A stretch of 7,415 nucleotides of DNA from a virus (Duplodnaviria > Heunggongvirae > Uroviricota > Caudoviricetes), in the IMG/VR virus record IMGVR_UViG_2706794698_000011; one strand, written 5' to 3'. Positions 1-7,415 of this stretch are shown piece after piece. The stretch's first letter is position 1. Each line of letters opens with the position of its first letter. The position numbers were made by a program, and so were the translations under genes. Below the pieces are notes generated by a model. It had not been told where the DNA came from and searched no databases. It saw nothing but the letters and a program-made list of their open reading frames with translations.

Positions 1-35
1 GGGGAATATCTCCCCGGCAGCCTTCAGGGAAAAAT

Positions 36-98
36 ATCATCAGATGGCTGCTTAAAAAAAGAACAAATGGTAGTGTCCGCTATTGCCAGTACACCTCA
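36..98. repeat. Left copy of 63-bp perfect inverted repeat (partner 7353-7415)
   Basis: Reverse complement of 7353-7415 is identical to 36-98; identity stops at pos 99 / 7352. The right copy is cut by the window end, so the repeat may be longer outward. Confidence 0.9.
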
Positions 99-297
99 TC
101 CATCACCGAAAAAAATTGGCTTTTACACCATTGGCGATAAAAGCATTTACCTGTATGACCTACGCCGCATGGATGAAATCATGGAGGCTCTTGATAATCG
201 TTCGTCGATGGATTGGTGTGTTGCTGTTCATGATATGAATGCAGGGTTTGATGAAAAGATTTTGTTCCCCTCATCAGTTGAAAGCACTGCGGGTTAA
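67..297 (+). CDS. Hypothetical small protein (76 aa)
   Basis: ORF with plausible enteric codon usage; no clear Shine-Dalgarno; first 10 codons lie inside the inverted repeat; its stop overlaps the SD of the next ORF. Confidence 0.4.
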   Translation: MVVSAIASTPHPSPKKIGFYTIGDKSIYLYDLRRMDEIMEALDNRSSMDWCVAVHDMNAGFDEKILFPSSVESTAG

Positions 298-307
298 GGA
301 GTAACAC

Positions 308-475
308 ATGACCACTATTACCAAAGAACGTATTGAATTGTTCATTAAAAACCCGCTTGAAAACGGGCTTACCCGTGGTGAACAAATGGAACTGGCACGG
401 ATTGCGCTGGCATCGCTGGAAGCAGAGCCGGTTGTGTTCTGGTTTGAAAAATATCAAGAAGGGGCTACGGCATGA
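308..475 (+). CDS. Hypothetical small protein (55 aa), paralogous to the next ORF
   Basis: ATG at 308 preceded by AGGAG (297-301); stop overlaps the next start as ATGA (472-475); shares an N-terminal MTT(I/F)T(K/R)E and an IAL(A/V)SL(E/A)AEP motif with ORF 472-816. Below the 60-aa cutoff of the ORF track. Confidence 0.55.
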
Positions 476-816
476 CGACTTTTACCAGAGAGCAGTTAAT
501 AGCTCACGCAGAGGAGACTATTGAAGCACAGAGACTGTGCATACCGGGCACAATCGACCATGACATCATCCGCACATATAAGATGGATATTGCTGTTCTG
601 GAAATCGCACTGGTATCGCTGGCAGCAGAGCCAGCCGGTAAATTGCATGAATACAAACCAGTGGGATATCAGCGTCTGGTCGATGAGTTAACCATGCTGG
701 TAAAGCAGTTAACCTGGCAACTGAGGAAAGCGAAGCCAGACTGCAAATTACCGGATAAGGCGATGAGTTATCTGGAGCGGAACGGACTGATAAGCGTGGA
801 GGATATTTTACGATGA
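472..816 (+). CDS. Hypothetical phage protein (114 aa)
   Basis: ORF in the track; start overlaps the upstream stop (ATGA); shared motif with ORF 308-475 suggests tandem duplication. Confidence 0.6.
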
Positions 817-896
817 CCTGGCCTGAAGCATTAACAACGGTAGGAATTGCGATGGCGGTGGCGCTGGTGGTGTATTCGATTTGCCGCTGGGGATAA
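813..896 (+). CDS. Putative 27-aa hydrophobic (single transmembrane-like) peptide
   Basis: ATG 813 overlaps the upstream stop (ATGA); GGAGG at 798-802; sequence [27 protein letters not shown] is mostly hydrophobic. Confidence 0.4.
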
Positions 897-903
897 AAAC
901 GGT

Positions 904-931
904 TTGCGGGAAAAGGAGAGTTAAGTAGAAT
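904..931 (+). promoter_or_regulatory. Candidate sigma70 promoter of the hok mRNA
   Basis: -35 TTGCGG (904-909), 16-nt spacer, -10 TAGAAT (926-931); predicted start near 938, giving an mRNA of about 415 nt to the terminator at 1353. Confidence 0.5.
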
Positions 932-999
932 TGCAGCGGGTGCTTGAGGCTATCTGTCTCAGGCATGAACACCAAAAGGCAGATAGAGAAAAGCCCCAG

Positions 1000-1059
1000 T
1001 TAACATTACGCGTCCGGCAAGACGCTTAACATTAATCTGAGGCTCAATCTATGAACGGC
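1000..1059 (-). ncRNA. sok: Candidate Sok-like antisense RNA (approximate ends)
   Basis: Minus-strand promoter inside mok: -35 TTGCCT (complement of 1089-1094), 17-nt spacer, -10 TAACCT (complement of 1066-1071); transcript would cover the mok start and SD; hairpin 1010-1025 on the antisense strand. Ends inferred, not measured. Confidence 0.4.
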
Positions 1060-1263
1060 AAATCTAGGTTAGCCTCTTACGTGCCGAAAGGCAAGGAGAA
1101 GCAGGCTATGAAGCAGCAAAAGGCGATGTTAATCGCCCTGATCGTCATCTGTTTAACCGTCATAGTGACGGCACTGGTAACGAGGAAAGACCTCTGCGAG
1201 GTACGAATTCGAACCGGCCAGACGGAGGTCGCTGTCTTCACAGCTTACGAACCTGAGGAGTAA
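1051..1263 (+). CDS. mok: mok-like overlapping reading frame (modulator of killing)
   Basis: 70-codon ORF whose last 51 codons are hok in the same frame; GAGG at 1039-1042; architecture matches the hok/mok/sok loci. Confidence 0.6.
   Translation: MNGKSRLASYVPKGKEKQAMKQQKAMLIALIVICLTVIVTALVTRKDLCEVRIRTGQTEVAVFTAYEPEE
1108..1263 (+). CDS. hok: Hok/Gef-family type I toxin (51 aa)
   Basis: MKQQKAMLIALIVICLTVIVTALVTRKDLCEVRIRTGQTEVAVFTAYEPEE carries the Hok signature (TM helix, TRK.LCE.R.R.G..EVA.F.AYE); AGGAG at 1094-1098. Confidence 0.9.
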   Translation: MKQQKAMLIALIVICLTVIVTALVTRKDLCEVRIRTGQTEVAVFTAYEPEE

Positions 1264-1332
1264 GAGACCAGGCGGGGGAGAAATCCCTCGCCACCTCTGA
1301 TGGGGCAGGCATCCTCAATGCACCCACACTTA

Positions 1333-1353
1333 ACCCGCTTCGGCGGGTTTTTG
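1333..1353 (+). terminator. Intrinsic terminator of the hok mRNA
   Basis: 6-bp stem ACCCGC/GCGGGT with TTCG loop followed by a T-run (1348-1360). Confidence 0.8.
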
Positions 1354-1483
1354 TTTTTATTTTCAACGCGTTTGAAGTTTTAGATGGTGCCGGAATAGAA
1401 TCAAAAATACTTAAGTAGCGCGCAGGGAGAAGAGGGATGGACCCCGAACAGGGGAGTGCTATTTATCTGGAAGGATTCTGTTG

Positions 1484-1765
1484 ATGAAAATCGAAGAATT
1501 ACGTGAAATTTTTAGTGAAGATGGCCTCTATACTGTGCGCGTTGAGAATGGCGCTATTGTCAGCCACTGCCTTCCAGACTACACAATTCTGATAATTCAG
1601 CCGTCTTTGCCAGCAGGCACGGGCGGCGCTCTCACGCATTTAAATCTGATTGGTACCAGCATCCCCCATGCACTGAAGAACAGGCCGAATGGCTCATTCA
1701 GTGTTACCGCAGGCGCGGATGCGAGGTTAAAAAAGCCCTTAGCCTCGACTACCGTCACTGGATAA
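1484..1765 (+). CDS. Hypothetical small protein (93 aa in the zero frame; possible 118-aa form ending at 1839 after a -1 shift at 1729-1735)
   Basis: ATG 1484 with AAGGA 8 nt upstream; the -1 frame is open from 1546 to a TAA at 1837-1839 that overlaps the next gene start (TAATGTG). Confidence 0.55.
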   Translation: MKIEELREIFSEDGLYTVRVENGAIVSHCLPDYTILIIQPSLPAGTGGALTHLNLIGTSIPHALKNRPNGSFSVTAGADARLKKPLASTTVTG

Positions 1766-1840
1766 TCTCCGTCAGGCTCCCTTACTCCGAACGGCCAACG
1801 CGTCCGTCCCGCACATTCCAGCAACGGATCTGGAGGTAAT

Positions 1841-2899
1841 GTGCGGGTATTACTTCGACCTGTTCTGGTACCGGAACTCGGTCTGGTTATCGTTAAGCCA
1901 GGCCGTGAATCAATGTCAGCATTCCATAACGGCAGAATACTGGTGGAGCCGGAACCAAAAAGCATGCGTAATCTGCCGTCCGGGGTCGTTCCTGCCGCTC
2001 GCCAGCCGCTGGTGGAAGACAAAACATTGCTGCCGTTTTTCAGTAACGCACGGGTGATTCGTGCTGCTGGTGGTGCTGGTGCATTGTCTGACTGGCTGTT
2101 GCGCCATATTAAATCCTGCCAGTGGCCACACGGCGATTATCATCACAGCGAAACCGTCATTCACCGTTATGGTACCGGCGCAATGGTGTTGTGCTGGCAC
2201 TGCGACAACCAGCTGCGTGACCAGACATCCGAATCACTCGAGCAACTTGCTCATCAAAACCTGTCAGCATGGATGATTGACGTCATCGGTCACGCAATAA
2301 GCGGTACGCAGGAGCGTGAATTATCTCTGGCTGAATTATCCTGGTGGGCGGTCCGCAATCAGGTGGCGGACGCGCTACCGGAAGCGGTATTACGTCGTTC
2401 GCTGGGGTTGCGTGCGGAAAAAATTCGCTCTGTGTACAGTGAAAGCGACATCATACCGGGAGAGCAGACAGCCACCAGCATACTGAAGCAGCGCACAAAA
2501 AATATTGCGTTACTGCCTCACGTCCACCAGCAACAGAACCCACCACAGGAAAAGACGGTGGTCAGCATTGCCGTTGATCCGGAGTCACCGGCTCAGTATC
2601 TCCAGCGCCAGAAATCACAACGGGAAGAGATGCCTGTATACACGCGCTGGGTAAAAACGCAGAAATGCATGACGTGTGGCAATCAGGCAGATGATCCGCA
2701 TCACATCATTGGTCATGGACTGGGAGGGATGGGAACAAAGGCTGATGATTTGTTTGTTATTCCGTTATGCCGTAAATGCCGTAACGAACTACATGCCGGA
2801 GTAAAAGATTTTGAAGAGAAACACGGCAGTCAGCTGTTGTTGCTGATTCGTTTTTTAATGCACGCGAGAAATTCGGGTGTTCTGAAGTGGAAAGCATAA
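1841..2899 (+). CDS. DUF968/NinG-like phage protein with C-terminal Cys/His (HNH or zinc-ribbon-like) cluster, 352 aa
   Basis: Long ORF with enteric codon usage; GTG 1841 preceded by GGAGG (1832-1836); C-terminus CMTCGNQADDPHHIIGHGLGGMGTKADDLFVIPLCRKCRNELH resembles the metal-binding motif of NinG/YbcO-type phage proteins. Family assignment is from memory. Confidence 0.6.
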   Translation: MRVLLRPVLVPELGLVIVKPGRESMSAFHNGRILVEPEPKSMRNLPSGVVPAARQPLVEDKTLLPFFSNARVIRAAGGAGALSDWLLRHIKSCQWPHGDYHHSETVIHRYGTGAMVLCWHCDNQLRDQTSESLEQLAHQNLSAWMIDVIGHAISGTQERELSLAELSWWAVRNQVADALPEAVLRRSLGLRAEKIRSVYSESDIIPGEQTATSILKQRTKNIALLPHVHQQQNPPQEKTVVSIAVDPESPAQYLQRQKSQREEMPVYTRWVKTQKCMTCGNQADDPHHIIGHGLGGMGTKADDLFVIPLCRKCRNELHAGVKDFEEKHGSQLLLLIRFLMHARNSGVLKWKA

Positions 2900-3280: not shown

Positions 3281-4026
3281 AACTGGAAGATTTACCGAAA
3301 TACTACTCCCCAAAATCCCCCGGCCTGACTGATGCATCGGCCTCAACGTCGAAAGATGCGCTGAGTATCACTGATGTGATGGCCGCGCAGGGCATGACAC
3401 AGAATCGGGCTGAGATGGGGGTTTCTGCGTTCCTTGGGAAAATGGGCATTAGTATGAATGACAGAGAGCGGGCAACAGAATTGCTGACAGAATATGCACT
3501 CAGTCGGTGTGATCGCGTGGCGGCGTTAAGAAAACTCCCGGCAGAAATAAAACCGGCAGTGATGCGTATTATGGCTTCGTATGCGTTTGAAGATTATGCC
3601 CGTAGCGCGGCGAGCAAAAAACANNNNNNNNNNNNNNNNNNNNNNNNNNNNNNNNNNNNNNNNNNNNNNNNNNNNNNNNNNNNNNNNNNNNNNNNNNNNN
3701 NNNNNNNNNNNNNNNNNNNNNNNNNNNNNNNNNNNNNNNNNNNNNNNNNNNNNNNNNNNNNNNNNNNNNNNNNNNNNNNNNNNNNNNNNNNNNNNNNNNN
3801 NNNNNNNNNNNNNNNNNNNNNNNNNNNNNNNNNNNNNNNNNNNNNNNNNNNNNNNNNNNNNNNNNNNNNNNNNNNNNNNNNNNNNNNNNNNATATGCGAG
3901 GTGACAAACCAGATAACACGCGCGTCATGGGAAAAAACAGTTAAGAAATTTTATGATGCGCTGGTGACCCGGTTTGATATTGAAGAAGCATGGGCTGAGC
4001 GGCAGTTAAAAAAGGTAACTAGGTAA
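3277..4026 (+). CDS. Q: Lambda-Q-family late antitermination protein (central 268 nt masked)
   Basis: N-terminus KYYSPKSPGLTD...DVMAAQGM and C-terminus KTVKKFYDALVTRFDIEE...KKVTR parallel lambda Q (FHSPKSP..., TVKPLYDALV...AVTR); ATGA overlap with rusA; frame is maintained across the mask 3624-3891. Confidence 0.8.
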   Translation: MKLEDLPKYYSPKSPGLTDASASTSKDALSITDVMAAQGMTQNRAEMGVSAFLGKMGISMNDRERATELLTEYALSRCDRVAALRKLPAEIKPAVMRIMASYAFEDYARSAASKKXXXXXXXXXXXXXXXXXXXXXXXXXXXXXXXXXXXXXXXXXXXXXXXXXXXXXXXXXXXXXXXXXXXXXXXXXXXXXXXXXXXXXXXXXXICEVTNQITRASWEKTVKKFYDALVTRFDIEEAWAERQLKKVTR

Positions 4027-4505: not shown

Positions 4506-4858
4506 CATCTGCTCATGCGTTGGGTTCACAAGCAAACCTCAGGCCCACTGCTTTGCGCAAAAGCAGAATGAGCCTATCAGAGACAGGCTTAATGATCCAT
4601 GCTTAATANNNNNNNNNNNNNNNNNNNNNNNNNNNNNNNNNNNNNNNNNNNNNNNNNNNNNNNNNNNNNNNNNNNNNNNNNNNNNNNNNNNNNNNNNNNN
4701 NNNNNNNNNNNNNNNNNNNNNNNNNNNNNNNNNNNNNNNNNNNNNNNNNNNNNNNNNNNNNNNNNNNNNNNNNNNNNNNNNNNNNNNNNNNNNNNNNNNN
4801 NNNNNNNNNNNNNNNNNNNNNNNNNNNNNNNNNNNNNNNNNNNNNNNNNNNNNNNNNN

Positions 4859-5661
4859 CATCTGATATCGAAATCATGATGCGTGAACGCTTCAGTGTGC
4901 TGAACCATATTATCTGGGCGAAGCCGTCCGGACGCTGGAACGGATGCAACAAGGAAAGCCTGCGGGCGTATTTCCCCGCCACAGAGCGCATTCTGTTCGC
5001 GGAACATTATCAGGGGCCGTATCGTCCGAAAGATGCCGGGTATGCGGCGAAGGGCAGTGCACTGAAACAGCATGTGATGGCCCCGCTGATTTCTTACTTT
5101 CGTGATGCGCGAGCTGCCCTGGGGATAACGGCAAAACAGATTGCAGATGCCACAGGAAAGAAAAACATGGCGTCGCACTGGTTCAGTGCCGGTCAGTGGC
5201 AGTTGCCGAATGAAAGCGATTATCTGAAATTACAGGCGCTGTTTGCCCGGGTGGCAGAAGAGAAGCATCGGCGTGGTGAACTGGAAAAGCTCCACCACCA
5301 GCTGGTGGATACGTATACCTCACTGAACCGGCAGTATGCGGAGCTGCTGAGTGAATATAAACATCTGCGGCGGTATTTTGGCGTGACGGTGCAGGTGCCG
5401 TATACCGATGTGTGGACGCATAAACCGGTGCAGTTCTATCCCGGGAAACATCCGTGCGAAAAACCGGCAGAAATGCTGCAGCAGATAATCAGCGCTAGCA
5501 GTCGTCCGGGTGACCTGATTGCAGATTTTTTCATGGGGTTGGGTTCGACAGTGAAAGCGGCACTGGCGCTCGGGCGTCGTGCAATTGGCGTTGAGCTGGA
5601 GACTGAACGTTTTGAGCAGACGGTTCGGGAAGTACAGGATTTAGTCAGCCAGAACGGATGA
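4859..5661 (+). CDS. DNA amino-methyltransferase (N6-adenine/N4-cytosine type), 3' portion; N-terminus inside mask 4609-4858
   Basis: HPCEKP followed by DFFMGLGST (FxGxG AdoMet motif) near the C-terminus, the arrangement of beta-class amino-MTases; frame is open back to the mask with no start codon between 4492 and 4608, so the start is probably masked. Confidence 0.75.
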
Positions 5662-5700: not shown

Positions 5701-5776
5701 CGGCCCTTTAGCTCAGTGGTGAGAGCGAGCGACTCATAATCGCCAGGTCGCTGGTTCAAATCCAGCAAGGGCCACC
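5701..5776 (+). tRNA. tRNA with CAU anticodon, closest by eye to tRNA-Ile2 (lysidine) of the ileX type; tRNA-Met not excluded
   Basis: Full cloverleaf can be drawn: acceptor GGCCCTT/AAGGGCC, D-arm GCTC...GAGC, anticodon loop CTCATAA, T-arm GCTGG-TTCAAAT-CCAGC, 3' ACCA. Confidence 0.85.
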
Positions 5777-5783
5777 ATCACAT

Positions 5784-5818: not shown

Positions 5819-6148
5819 NNNNNNNNNNNNNNNNNNNNNNNNNNNNNNNNNNNNNNNNNNNNNNNNNNNNNNNNNNNNNNNNNNNNNNNNNNNNNNNNNN
5901 NNNNNNNNNNNNNNNNNNNNNNNNNNNNNNNNNNNNNNNNNNNNNNNNNNNNNNNNNNNNNNNNNNNNNNNNNNNNNNNNNNNNNNNNNNNNNNNNNNNN
6001 NNNNNNNNNNNNNNNNNNNNNNNNNNNNNNNNNNNNNNNNNNNNNNNNNNNNNNNNNNNNNNNNNNNNTTTTAAATACTTCACAATTCAGGCGGTTGACT
6101 GTTGTCTGGTTTGCGGGGAGTTTGTTAAAAGAAACTGGCATGGTGAAT

Positions 6149-6292
6149 CCCCCTGTGCGGAGGGGCAATCAGCGAGTAGGTATATGGGATAATCGCGGAT
6201 TCAGGTGCTGGTACTGAATTCACCGGGAGGCACCCGGCATCATGCAATGGCACATAGCGCCACTCTCCAGCCCTCTCCGGAGGGGCTTTTCT
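6149..6292 (+). other. GC-rich hairpin-dense non-coding stretch (candidate structured RNA or regulatory leader)
   Basis: Four local hairpins (6150-6165, 6197-6221, 6223-6237, 6270-6286), the last followed by CTTTTCT; no ORF over 30 codons on either strand. Confidence 0.3.
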
Positions 6293-6681
6293 GTGCCGGA
6301 TACATCACAGTTTCTGGAACCTTAGGTACTACAGTATCAGTCAGGGTGCTATATTTTCAGATGTGATGAAAGCCTGTCAGCAGGCAGGGCGTATCGGAAA
6401 TGACCCAGTAGAGAAAACNNNNNNNNNNNNNNNNNNNNNNNNNNNNNNNNNNNNNNNNNNNNNNNNNNNNNNNNNNNNNNNNNNNNNNNNNNNNNNNNNN
6501 NNNNNNNNNNNNNNNNNNNNNNNNNNNNNNNNNNNNNNNNNNNNNNNNNNNNNNNNNNNNNNNNNNNNNNNNNNNNNNNNNNNNNNNNNNNNNNNNNNNN
6601 NNNNNNNNNNNNNNNNNNNNNNNNNNNNNNNNNNNNNNNNNNNNNNNNNNNNNNNNNNNNNNNNNNNNNNNNNNNNNNNNN

Positions 6682-6981
6682 TTGCAGAGTGCAACGGTTA
6701 TTAAAGCATTCATTCAATACGTTATCTGTATTTGTAGGGCATTCCTGGCTATTTTTGATTGAATTCCAGAATGTTTTATTGAATGGTACTACGTTGTAAA
6801 TGGTTACAGGTAGCACTTTGTTATTGAGCATGATGCCTGTGTGAGTCAGTGTAAATATACTTTCAGGAGGTAAGAAAGCATCCGATTGATACCAGATTAT
6901 TAATTTTATTTTACTCCATATGACTGAAAAAGATATTCCGCATGATGGCTGGATAACTGTATCAATCACAATCCACTTCAT
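6682..6981 (-). CDS. AT-rich hypothetical protein (at least 100 aa visible; 3' part enters mask 6419-6681)
   Basis: ATG at 6981 with AAGGAAAC SD (complement of 6985-6992); about 35 percent GC versus over 50 percent around it; AT-biased codons (ATA, AAA, TTA, AAT); uninterrupted 100-codon ORF in AT-rich DNA. Confidence 0.6.
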
Positions 6982-7243
6982 TTAGTTTCCTTNNNNNNNN
7001 NNNNNNNNNNNNNNNNNNNNNNNNNNNNNNNNNNNNNNNNNNNNNNNNNNNNNNNNNNNNNNNNNNNNNNNNNNNNNNNNNNNNNNNNNNNNNNNNNNNN
7101 NNNNNNNNNNNNNNNNNNNNNNNNNNNNNNNNNNNNNNNNNNNNNNNNNNNNNNNNNNNNNNNNNNNNNNNNNNNNNNNNNNNNNNNNNNNNNNNNNNNN
7201 NNNNNNNNNNNNNNNNNNNNNNNNNNNNNNNNNNNNNNNNNNT

Positions 7244-7399
7244 GATGTTGTCAGGGCGGCGCCGCCGTCAGATCTTGCGGAAAAGCTGACACATAAACTG
7301 AAAGAGGGCTGGCAGCCGTTTGGTAGTCCGGTGGCCATAACCCCTTATACCCTGAGGTGTACTGGCAATAGCGGACACTACCATTTGTTCTTTTTTTAA
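7244..7399 (+). CDS. 3' end of a hypothetical protein (5' part inside mask 6993-7242)
   Basis: Open frame from the mask edge to TAA 7397-7399 with enteric codon usage (...KLKEGWQPFGSPVAITPYTLRCTGNSGHYHLFFF); the last 14 codons lie in the inverted repeat. Confidence 0.5.
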   Translation, partial: DVVRAAPPSDLAEKLTHKLKEGWQPFGSPVAITPYTLRCTGNSGHYHLFFF

Positions 7400-7415
7400 G
7401 CAGCCATCTGATGAT
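7353..7415. repeat. Right copy of 63-bp perfect inverted repeat (partner 36-98)
   Basis: Exact reverse-complement match to 36-98; contains the last 14 codons and stop of the + strand ORF ending at 7399. Confidence 0.9.

What the first reader, a model, noticed from the sequence alone, without database searches (positions are those of the whole stretch)
904..1353. Apparently intact hok/mok/sok type I toxin-antitoxin locus with all regulatory elements recognisable
The locus contains a Hok-family toxin ORF nested in a mok frame, a candidate hok promoter, an antisense promoter inside mok positioned to give a roughly 60-nt Sok-like RNA over the mok start, and a terminator. In addition the predicted mRNA 5' end GGGTGCTTGAGG (938-949) is complementary to CCTCAATGCACCC (1313-1325) near the 3' end, as expected for the tac/fbi fold-back pairing of hok mRNAs. 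Chromosomal hok loci are often decayed; this one looks complete and stands alone, without relBE-like genes upstream.
Basis: partly seen in the sequence, partly recalled or inferred. Interest (0 to 1): 0.45.

Follow-up and report, generated by a model that had tools for sequence, protein, structure and literature searches.

The report
Intact prophage hok/mok/sok toxin-antitoxin locus
This is a complete but ordinary copy of the well-known hok/sok RNA-controlled killer-gene module, carried in a lambda-like prophage of E. coli, and near-identical copies are present in most sequenced E. coli genomes.

Summary
Window 903-1357 holds a complete hok/mok/sok type I toxin-antitoxin module. The 51-aa ORF (1108-1263) matches Pfam Hok/Gef (E=1e-23) and is identical to E. 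coli K-12 HokD/RelF. The mRNA leader matches Rfam RF01794 from exactly base 938 (112 bits). The locus is 92.6% identical to hokW-mokW-sokW of Stx2 phage 933W/Sp5, which has been shown experimentally to be a type I TA. The -10 box of the sok promoter that was mutated in that study is unchanged here.

Folding reproduces every published hok mRNA conformation: the metastable 5' hairpin, tac/fbi end-pairing, ucb/mok-SD, and tac/ucb plus mok-SD/dcb. Across relatives, five classes of 5' end each have a compensating 3' partner.

This is not a lone chromosomal relic. It sits in the nin region of a lambdoid prophage (hok, rem, DUF968, RusA, Q). It is the intact form of the hokD lineage, and K-12's relBE-hokD is the truncated exception. 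About three quarters of complete E. coli genomes carry the regulatory half.

Verdict: already known, low interest. The one mildly interesting side observation is that the Sok 5' tail / mok start is hypervariable among otherwise near-identical copies.

The parts
903..931 (+). hok promoter: -35 TTTGCG (903-908), 17-nt spacer, -10 TAGAAT (926-931)
   Evidence: The -10 box is conserved (TAGAAT, TAAAAT or TACAAT) in 76 unique related loci, even where the sequence upstream of about 918-926 is unrelated. A TTG-type -35 is always found 17 nt upstream. The region is identical to 933W apart from base 935. A consensus scan did not flag it.
938..1355 (+). Full-length hok mRNA, about 418 nt. The 5' end is predicted at G938 and the 3' end at the terminator T-run.
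   Evidence: The Rfam RF01794 match starts at 938. The same 5' motif is conserved in R1, hokB, hokC and hokW. The fold has z=-6.9.
938..949 (+). tac (translational activator element), the 5' partner in the end-pairing
   Evidence: It pairs with 1313-1325 in the full-length MFE, with 956-966 in the nascent transcript, and with 991-997 (ucb) once the 3' end is removed.
956..966 (+). 3' arm of the metastable 5' hairpin (partner of 940-950) in the nascent transcript
   Evidence: RNAfold of 938-968 gives an 11-bp hairpin of -16.9 kcal/mol.
992..999 (+). ucb, the anti-Shine-Dalgarno box for mok
   Evidence: It pairs with 1037-1044 (mok SD) in the MFE of 938-1312 and 938-1318. With this pairing enforced, the full-length fold is only 2.4 kcal/mol above the MFE. 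GCCCC is invariant in the five-locus alignment.
989..1059 (-). Sok-like antisense RNA gene, about 67-71 nt
   Evidence: Coordinates were transferred from the annotated sokW of 933W. The fold is a 14-nt single-stranded 5' tail, a long hairpin and then UUUU, at -29.9 kcal/mol, z=-4.9.
1039..1042 (+). mok Shine-Dalgarno GAGG, 8 nt before the mok ATG
   Evidence: Read from the sequence. Conserved in the alignments.
1051..1263 (+). mok reading frame, 70 aa, in frame with hok
   Evidence: ORF list. The same -57 in-frame layout occurs in 61 of 72 intact relatives and in the R1-type locus.
1066..1094 (-). sok promoter on the minus strand: -10 TAACCT (1071 to 1066), 17-nt spacer, -35 TTGCCT (1094 to 1089)
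   Evidence: Identical to 933W/Sp5. Primer YO-421 of PMC8621323 mutates exactly this -10 box to make the 'pro-less' construct that loses antitoxin activity. The layout matches R1: TTGCGC, 17 nt, TATCCT.
1065..1076 (+). dcb, the downstream box that pairs with the mok SD/start region in the open, processed form
   Evidence: In the MFE of 938-1300, 1039-1051 pairs with 1065-1076. The FASTBAC-Seq paper places dcb over the sok promoter.
1093..1098 (+). hok Shine-Dalgarno AAGGAG
   Evidence: Invariant in the five-locus alignment. Homology to K-12 hokD begins here.
1108..1263 (+). hok toxin gene, 51 aa, identical to K-12 HokD/RelF
   Evidence: Pfam PF01848 E=1.2e-23. The translation is identical to b1562.
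1271..1292 (+). Stable 9-bp stem-loop in the 3' UTR. It is the likely 3' protective hairpin of the processed mRNA.
   Evidence: -18.8 kcal/mol, z=-4.4. The role is inferred from the R1 model.
1313..1325 (+). fbi (fold-back inhibitory element), the 3' partner of tac
   Evidence: Compensatory changes occur across five tac classes.
1332..1357 (+). Intrinsic terminator of the hok mRNA
   Evidence: Seven-pair stem AACCCGC-TTCG-GCGGGTT followed by TTTGTTTTT. Shared with K-12 hokD but not with 933W.

Best explanation
Window 903-1357 is an intact hok/mok/sok type I toxin-antitoxin module of the hokD/hokW lineage. It is carried as a self-contained cassette in the nin region of a lambdoid prophage.

Proposed mechanism (the sequence features are shown here; the dynamics are inferred from the R1 and Sp5 systems):
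1. A weak constitutive promoter (903-931) makes a stable mRNA of about 418 nt starting at G938.
2. While it is being made, the 5' end is held in a metastable hairpin (940-950 with 956-966).
3. Once complete, the 5' tac element (938-949) pairs with the 3' fbi element (1313-1325). The mok Shine-Dalgarno can then be sequestered by ucb (992-999). In this state the RNA is neither translated nor bound by Sok.
4. Slow 3' trimming back to the stable hairpin 1271-1292 removes fbi. tac then switches to ucb, and the mok start region folds against dcb (1065-1076). This exposes the mok translation start and the Sok target.
5. A short, unstable antisense RNA of about 70 nt is made from a promoter inside mok (1094 to 1066, minus strand). 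Its 14-nt single-stranded 5' tail pairs with the mok start region. That blocks mok translation, and therefore the coupled hok translation, and triggers RNase III cleavage.
6. When Sok synthesis stops, the stored mRNA is translated. Sok could stop because the prophage is lost, because a superinfecting phage shuts off transcription, or because the prophage is induced.
7. The 51-aa Hok peptide then inserts into the inner membrane and depolarises or lyses the cell.
For: - Toxin family: Pfam Hok/Gef E=1e-23 and PHROG 251.
- Toxin identity: the peptide is identical to K-12 HokD. HokD was used as a known toxic control in 10.1101/2025.08.07.668861.
- RNA family: Rfam RF01794, 112 bits, starting at 938.
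- Closest tested relative: 92.6% nt identity to 933W hokW/mokW/sokW, with both promoters, both SDs, tac and fbi unchanged. hokW-sokW has been shown experimentally to be a toxin plus RNA antitoxin. Antitoxin activity was lost when the same -10 box was mutated (PMC8621323).
- Folds: the full-length MFE contains tac/fbi. The nascent hairpin, ucb/SD, tac/ucb and SD/dcb conformers all appear at the expected transcript lengths. This matches the published R1 model.
- Covariation: five tac classes (GGGUGCUUGAGG, GGCGCUUGAGG, GGGUGCUUGAGA, GGGUGCCUGAGA, GGCGCCUGAGA) each have a compensating fbi 343-384 nt downstream. The mean duplex energy with a locus's own 3' region is -20.1, against -16.4 across classes and -12.5 for shuffles.
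- Sok RNA: it folds as a 5' tail plus hairpin plus U-run, z=-4.9.
- Prophage context: RusA, Q antiterminator, DUF968 and a methylase lie downstream. Synteny matches Qin and other prophages.
Against: - There are no expression or toxicity data for this exact locus.
- Both promoters are weak matches to consensus and were missed by the scan.
- In the ViennaRNA full-length MFE the mok SD pairs with dcb rather than ucb. The published closed form is 2.4 kcal/mol less stable, so the in-silico ranking of conformers is not decisive.
- The small target hairpin 1046-1070 is not significantly stable on its own.
- Structurally intact chromosomal hokA, hokB and hokC loci were reported not to mediate post-segregational killing or to respond to rifampicin (cited). 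An intact anatomy therefore does not guarantee a killing phenotype.
- HokD-type peptides may need Tyr-to-Cys RNA editing for full toxicity.
Confidence: 0.88

Rival explanations
1. The locus is anatomically intact but physiologically silent. It would be a passenger that is transcribed yet never releases enough Hok to matter, as was concluded for chromosomal hokA, hokB and hokC.
For: [quoted passage not shown] The promoters are weak matches to consensus. Tyr47 may need editing to Cys for full activity.
Against: The nearest tested relative, hokW-sokW (92.6% identical, same promoters), is toxic, is neutralised by its Sok, and affects lysis and phage yield. Every regulatory element is conserved across dozens of contexts, with compensatory changes, which argues for purifying selection on function. 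The regulatory half is retained in about 76% of complete E. coli genomes.
Confidence: 0.12
2. The role is lysis helper rather than addiction module. On prophage induction Sok disappears and Hok permeabilises the membrane ahead of holin and endolysin, which raises phage release. Here the trigger could be sense-direction read-through from the early-right operon colliding with the convergent sok promoter.
For: In Sp5, mitomycin C removes sokW RNA in a RecA-dependent way, HokW appears about 1 h before endolysin, and deleting the locus halves phage release. In the window, hok lies in the same orientation as the flanking nin, RusA and Q genes, so antiterminated early transcription would cross it in the sense direction.
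Against: The read-through and interference step is pure inference. In 933W the locus sits elsewhere, about 3 kb from attR on the other strand, so the trigger cannot be specific to the nin position. The effect size in Sp5 is modest (two-fold).
Confidence: 0.4
3. The role is prophage addiction and/or abortive-infection defence. Cells that lose the prophage, or whose transcription is shut off by a superinfecting lytic phage, lose Sok and are killed.
For: This is the classic R1 hok/sok behaviour. R1 hok/sok also reduces T4 plating (summarised). hok genes are enriched four-fold in prophages.
Against: It has not been shown for any hokD/hokW-type prophage copy. hok loci are not enriched next to defence systems (section title; discussion).
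Confidence: 0.35
4. The resemblance is due to chance or to a decayed pseudogene. The promoter, tac/fbi and Sok features would then be over-read from a short ORF.
For: Only that the simple promoter scan found nothing at the proposed sites.
Against: Pfam E=1e-23 and Rfam E=1e-25. The peptide is 100% identical to HokD. Only 1 of 1000 shuffles matches the tac/fbi duplex. There is no frameshift or stop, and the elements are identical to a tested functional locus.
Confidence: 0.01

Closest known systems
hokW-mokW-sokW of Stx2 phages 933W / Sakai prophage 5 (Sp5)
   Same: 92.6% nt identity over window 880-1335. The hok promoter, sok promoter, both SDs, tac, ucb and fbi (apart from the bulged base) are identical. 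mok is 70 aa and in frame. Sok is about 71 nt with the same lineage-specific extension at the hairpin tip. Hok is 92% identical. This relative is experimentally a type I TA.
   Different: There are four C-terminal residue changes in Hok (T45V, A46D, P49S, E51K). Six of the 14 bases of the Sok 5' tail differ (GCCGUUCAUAGAUU here, GUUCAGCAUGGAUU in 933W). Homology ends at about 1330-1335, so 933W lacks this terminator. The 933W locus lies about 3 kb from attR rather than in the nin region.
E. coli K-12 hokD (relF), downstream of relBE in cryptic prophage Qin
   Same: The 51-aa peptide is identical. Nucleotide identity is 98% from the hok SD (window 1094) through the 3' UTR, fbi, terminator and beyond. 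The downstream neighbours are the same (rem, ydfU/DUF968).
   Different: K-12 has nothing homologous upstream of window 1094. It lacks the hok promoter, tac, ucb, the mok start, the Sok gene and the sok promoter, and has relBE in their place. The window locus is the untruncated form.
hok/sok (parB) of plasmid R1, the archetype
   Same: The architecture is the same: the mok ATG is 57 nt upstream and in frame, the sok promoter sits at the same position overlapping the hok SD, and the tac/fbi, ucb and dcb logic is shared.
   Different: Hok is only 41% identical. The tac class is GGCGCUUGAGG with a matching fbi. The Sok hairpin is shorter (the window has an insertion of about 16-18 nt at 1007-1024). 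R1 is a plasmid locus, this is a prophage locus.
E. coli K-12 hokC/mokC/sokC (gef)
   Same: Hok is 82% identical. Nucleotide identity is about 74% from the -10 box to the 3' UTR. The tac sequence is the same and mok is in frame.
   Different: It sits at a chromosomal, non-prophage site. In K-12 an IS186 lies directly downstream, and no tac-complementary fbi was found in the retained 3' sequence.

Membership tests
hok/sok (Hok/Gef) type I toxin-antitoxin family | Small (about 50 aa) Hok/Gef-family membrane peptide ORF | tested here: met
   PF01848 E=1.2e-23, 82.9 bits against a 22-bit cut-off. PHROG 251 E=2.8e-33. Identical to K-12 HokD. The NCBIfam Hok models hit below their curated cut-offs (48.5 bits against 73).
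hok/sok (Hok/Gef) type I toxin-antitoxin family | Overlapping mok frame with its own SD, starting upstream of hok, through which hok translation is coupled | tested here: met
   ORF 1051-1263, GAGG at 1039-1042, ATG 57 nt upstream and in frame, as in the R1-type locus. The coupling itself was not tested.
hok/sok (Hok/Gef) type I toxin-antitoxin family | Cis-encoded antisense Sok RNA: promoter inside mok, single-stranded 5' tail complementary to the mok start region, terminator hairpin | tested here: met
   The -35 TTGCCT, 17-nt spacer and -10 TAACCT are identical to the experimentally mutated sokW promoter. The fold is a 14-nt tail plus hairpin plus UUUU, z=-4.9. This is shown at the sequence level only.
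hok/sok (Hok/Gef) type I toxin-antitoxin family | 5'-3' end pairing (tac/fbi) of the full-length mRNA | tested here: met
   Present in the MFE. 1 of 1000 shuffles does as well. Five tac classes have compensating fbi elements.
hok/sok (Hok/Gef) type I toxin-antitoxin family | Alternative pairings: metastable 5' hairpin, ucb/mok-SD (closed form), tac/ucb plus mok-SD/dcb (open form) | tested here: met
   Each conformer is the MFE at the appropriate transcript length. In the full-length RNA the closed form is 2.4 kcal/mol above the MFE. The model follows.
hok/sok (Hok/Gef) type I toxin-antitoxin family | Hok is toxic when expressed, and Sok neutralises it | not testable with these tools
   The identical peptide (HokD) and the 92%-identical HokW are reported to be toxic.
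hok/sok (Hok/Gef) type I toxin-antitoxin family | Stable mRNA and unstable Sok, with slow 3' processing of the mRNA | not testable with these tools
   Only the likely protective 3' hairpin (1271-1292, z=-4.4) and the removable fbi tail are visible in the sequence.
hokD/hokW prophage lineage | High nucleotide identity over the whole cassette to hokW (933W/Sp5) and to the hokD 3' half, and location in a lambdoid prophage | tested here: met
   92.6% to 933W. 98% to K-12 hokD from 1094 onward. 100% identical to an IMG/VR contig. Q, RusA and DUF968 lie downstream.

The most novel reading that the evidence does not exclude
The 5' tail of Sok, together with the first mok codons it overlaps (window about 1043-1063), may be a hypervariable specificity determinant. 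Under this reading, lambdoid prophages that share an almost identical Hok and identical regulatory scaffolds each carry a private Sok/target allele. Several co-resident prophages could then each keep an independent, non-cross-protected killer module. The window carries one such allele (Sok 5' end GCCGUUCAUAGAUU).
Probability: 0.3. Interest if true: 0.4.

Novelty: already known. Interest (0 to 1): 0.12.

Why it matters
It matters little as a discovery. hok/sok is the founding type I toxin-antitoxin system, prophage copies are catalogued in the thousands, and the nearest relative (hokW-sokW) has been characterised.

The result is useful in three smaller ways:
- It is a clean annotation. RefSeq labels only the hokD CDS at such loci and leaves mok, Sok and the mRNA elements unannotated.
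- It shows that the K-12 reference hokD is the truncated exception within its lineage.
- It identifies a concentrated patch of variation at the antisense recognition site. That patch could be tested for insulation between co-resident prophage copies.

Tried and rejected
- **Promoter scan.** The sigma-70 consensus scan found neither the hok nor the sok promoter. Its only hit was an unrelated site at 1372-1401. I kept the two promoters on the strength of homology and conservation.
- **NCBIfam.** The Hok models hit only below their curated cut-offs, so I relied on Pfam, PHROG and exact identity to HokD.
- **Long-range ucb pairing.** I first read 993-998 pairing with 1301-1306, seen in the full-length MFE, as 'ucb/dcb'. 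I rejected this. 1301-1306 varies (TGGGGC, TGTGGC, TGTGTC) without compensation, and the literature places dcb over the sok promoter.
- **Local hairpins.** The sequence around the TACG editing motif (1234-1262) and the Sok target hairpin (1046-1070) are no more stable than shuffles.
- **Co-resident copies.** Copies within one genome carry different Sok-tail alleles (3 of 3, 3 of 3, 2 of 2, and 0 of 2). With 21 or more alleles in circulation this is expected by chance, so it is not evidence of selection.
- **Whole-window search.** No complete E. coli genome covers 80% or more of the window, partly because of masked N runs. The source genome was not pinned down beyond a 100% match of window 1-2760 to IMGVR_UViG_2734482560_000006.
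- **Small upstream ORF.** The 27-aa ORF has no PHROG or NCBIfam match.

Full report

Yes. The 51-aa ORF at 1108-1263 hits Pfam Hok/Gef at E=1.2e-23 and PHROG 251 'MokW-like host killing' at E=2.8e-33. It lies inside a 70-aa in-frame ORF that starts at 1051.

Rfam family RF01794 ('sok') matches the + strand at 938-1113 with 112 bits against a 59-bit gathering score. The model's consensus begins GGGUGCUUGA.

GGGTGCTTGAGG is at 938-949 and CCTCAATGCACCC at 1313-1325. A clean intrinsic terminator follows (stem 1332-1349 plus a T-run).

**2. Is it more than chance?**

The 418-nt RNA 938-1355 folds to -169.5 kcal/mol, z=-6.9, and its MFE pairs 938-949 with 1313-1325 with one bulged U. The 12-nt 5' end binds its own 3' region at -21.1 kcal/mol, against -12.3 +/- 2.0 for shuffles. 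Only 1 of 1000 shuffles was as good.

I collected 157 related loci from genomes and IMG/VR. Across them, five classes of 5' end each have a compensating 3' partner 343-384 nt downstream. Examples:
- GGGUGCCUGAGA pairs with UCUCA(U)GGCACCC in hokB.
- GGCGCCUGAGA pairs with UCUCA(U)GGCGCC.
- GGCGCUUGAGGC pairs with GCCUGAAGCGCC in the R1 type.

Mean duplex energy with a locus's own 3' region is -20.1, against -16.4 across classes and -12.5 for shuffles.

**3. The rest of the RNA anatomy**

The published R1 model is summarised in PMC9841398. It has four states: a metastable 5' hairpin in the nascent RNA; tac/fbi with the mok SD sequestered by ucb in the full-length RNA; then, after 3' trimming, tac/ucb with mok-SD/dcb, where dcb overlaps the sok promoter. 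The window reproduces each of these:
- 938-968 folds into an 11-bp hairpin (940-950 with 956-966) of -16.9 kcal/mol.
- 938-1312 and 938-1318 give ucb (992-999) paired with 1037-1044, which includes the GAGG at 1039-1042.
- 938-1300 gives tac (938-945) paired with ucb (991-997), plus 1039-1051 paired with 1065-1076.

In the full-length RNA the closed form (ucb/SD enforced) lies 2.4 kcal/mol above the MFE, so the prediction does not rank the two confidently. A very stable hairpin at 1271-1292 (-18.8 kcal/mol, z=-4.4) is the likely 3' stop for exonucleolytic trimming. That last point is an inference.

**4. The antisense gene**

The 933W record annotates sokW as a 71-nt minus-strand RNA that starts 9 nt inside mokW. 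Transferred to the window, this is 1059 to 989.

On the minus strand the promoter reads TTGCCT (1094-1089), a 17-nt spacer, then TAACCT (1071-1066). It is identical to 933W/Sp5. Takada et al. destroyed antitoxin activity by mutating exactly this -10 box. Primer YO-421 changes AGGTTAGCC to CGGCTCGCC.

The RNA folds as a 14-nt free 5' tail, a long hairpin and then UUUU, at -29.9 kcal/mol, z=-4.9. R1 has the same promoter geometry (TTGCGC, 17 nt, TATCCT).

**5. What it is and where it sits**

The cassette is 92.6% identical to hokW/mokW/sokW of Stx2 phage 933W, 98% identical to prophage copies in E. coli chromosomes, and 100% identical to an IMG/VR contig.

The peptide is identical to K-12 HokD/RelF. 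Alignment with K-12 shows that homology starts abruptly at the hok SD (window 1094) and continues at 98% through the 3' UTR, the terminator and beyond. Upstream, K-12 has relBE instead. K-12 hokD is therefore a 5'-truncated copy, and the window holds the intact form.

Downstream, both K-12 and the window have a DUF968 gene (ydfU in K-12). In the window this is followed by RusA and antiterminator Q, a methylase, a tRNA and an STnc100 sRNA. This is the nin-to-Q segment of a lambdoid prophage, as in the annotated relatives. No RelB or RelE is upstream.

**6. How common is it?**

Window 880-1380 matches 4933 of 5426 complete E. coli genomes. The median is 2 places and the maximum is 9, and 3829 genomes have a place covering at least 80% of the query. 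The regulatory half alone (938-1093) is present at 80% coverage or more in 4122 genomes, with 100%-identical copies, and carries no RefSeq annotation.

A recent survey found 6290 Hok homologs in IMG/VR and a four-fold enrichment of hok in prophages. Among 90 close relatives gathered here, almost all are intact, and only a handful show the K-12-type truncation at 1094.

**7. Mechanism and role**

The mechanism given under 'best explanation' is the R1 mechanism mapped onto the coordinates shown here. What is shown is the presence, conservation and foldability of each element. What is inferred is the kinetics, the RNase III cleavage and the killing.

For the biological role, the only direct data on this lineage come from Sp5. 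There, Sok disappears on RecA-dependent induction, HokW appears before endolysin, and deletion halves phage release. Prophage addiction and abortive-infection roles remain possible.

In the window the locus has the same orientation as the flanking nin, RusA and Q genes. Antiterminated early transcription would therefore cross it in the sense direction and could silence the convergent sok promoter. This is an untested idea, and it cannot be general, because the 933W copy lies near attR.

**8. Side finding**

I aligned 76 unique intact relatives chosen for near-identical Hok. Within the transcribed region, variation peaks at 1040-1069. The region around the mok ATG has at least 21 alleles. Mean pairwise divergence per site is 0.344 in 1046-1059, against 0.07-0.11 in the other untranslated parts and 0.014 in the hok CDS.

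This stretch encodes the Sok 5' tail, which is the recognition end in R1. The window and 933W differ at 6 of its 14 bases. Co-resident copies usually differ, but with this many alleles that is expected by chance.

The left boundary of the cassette also varies. Homology to other contexts begins between 918 and 930, just upstream of or at the -10 box, yet a TTG-type -35 is always present 17 nt upstream.

**9. Verdict**

The element is an ordinary, already-known prophage hok/mok/sok module.

Noticed in passing
window 1043-1063: The Sok 5' tail / mok start region is hypervariable among relatives that are otherwise near-identical. There are at least 21 alleles in 76 unique loci, and divergence is 0.344 per site against 0.07-0.11 in the other UTR parts. 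K-12 hokC and 933W hokW share the same first mok codons (ATGCTGAACACATGTAG) although the loci are only about 74% identical overall.
   Followed up: partly
window 813-896 (+): An unannotated 27-aa hydrophobic ORF ([27 protein letters not shown]). Its ATG overlaps the stop of the upstream gene (ATGA). It is conserved at the protein level, down to about 52% identity, upstream of hok in 33 related loci, at two different distances. It has no PHROG or NCBIfam match. It is probably a real small membrane-protein gene of the nin region.
   Followed up: partly
window 1246-1249: Tyr47 of Hok is encoded by TAC followed by G (TACG). It aligns with Cys46 of HokB. A preprint states that hokC, hokD and hokE mRNAs undergo TadA A-to-I editing that recodes this Tyr to Cys. 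The local sequence UUACGAA resembles a tRNA-Arg anticodon loop, but no significant hairpin was predicted.
   Followed up: partly
window 36-98 and 7353-7415: There is a perfect 63-nt inverted repeat at the two ends of the window. It also appears as a second reverse-strand hit of the IMG/VR contig. It is likely an assembly-graph artefact or a repeat shared between inverted prophage segments.
   Followed up: no
window 6109-6298 (+): A strong match to the Rfam sRNA STnc100 (122.5 bits against a 47-bit threshold) lies downstream of Q, the methylase and the tRNA. On the opposite strand next to it (about 6661-6981), the N-terminal part of an ORF resembles the anti-adapter IraM. That resemblance is from memory and from the IraM annotation at the corresponding place in a related prophage.
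   Followed up: no
window 5702-5777 (+): A prophage-borne tRNA with a CAT anticodon. ARAGORN calls it Met, and related prophages annotate it as tRNA-Ile. The neighbouring stretch is masked with N, where relatives carry two tRNA-Arg genes.
   Followed up: no
window 1481-1765 (+): The ORF at the position of rem matches its PHROG family (phrog_340) only over the first 30 residues. It looks like a disrupted or recombined rem gene.
   Followed up: no
window 1007-1024: A GC-rich insertion of about 16-18 nt, relative to R1, hokB and hokC, extends the tip of the Sok hairpin and of the matching mRNA hairpin. It is specific to the hokD/hokW lineage.
   Followed up: no
loci L105, L164, L096 and others (IMG/VR): Nine of the 72 intact relatives scored have a 2-nt deletion after the mok ATG. 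This puts mok in another frame, giving a 19-aa Mok whose stop overlaps the hok ATG (ATGA). It is a different coupling geometry on the same scaffold.
   Followed up: partly
window 3600-3900, 4610-4860, 5830-6070, 6400-6690, 7000-7240 (approximate): Runs of N mask parts of Q, the methylase, the tRNA region and other genes. ORF calls that cross them are artefactual.
   Followed up: no
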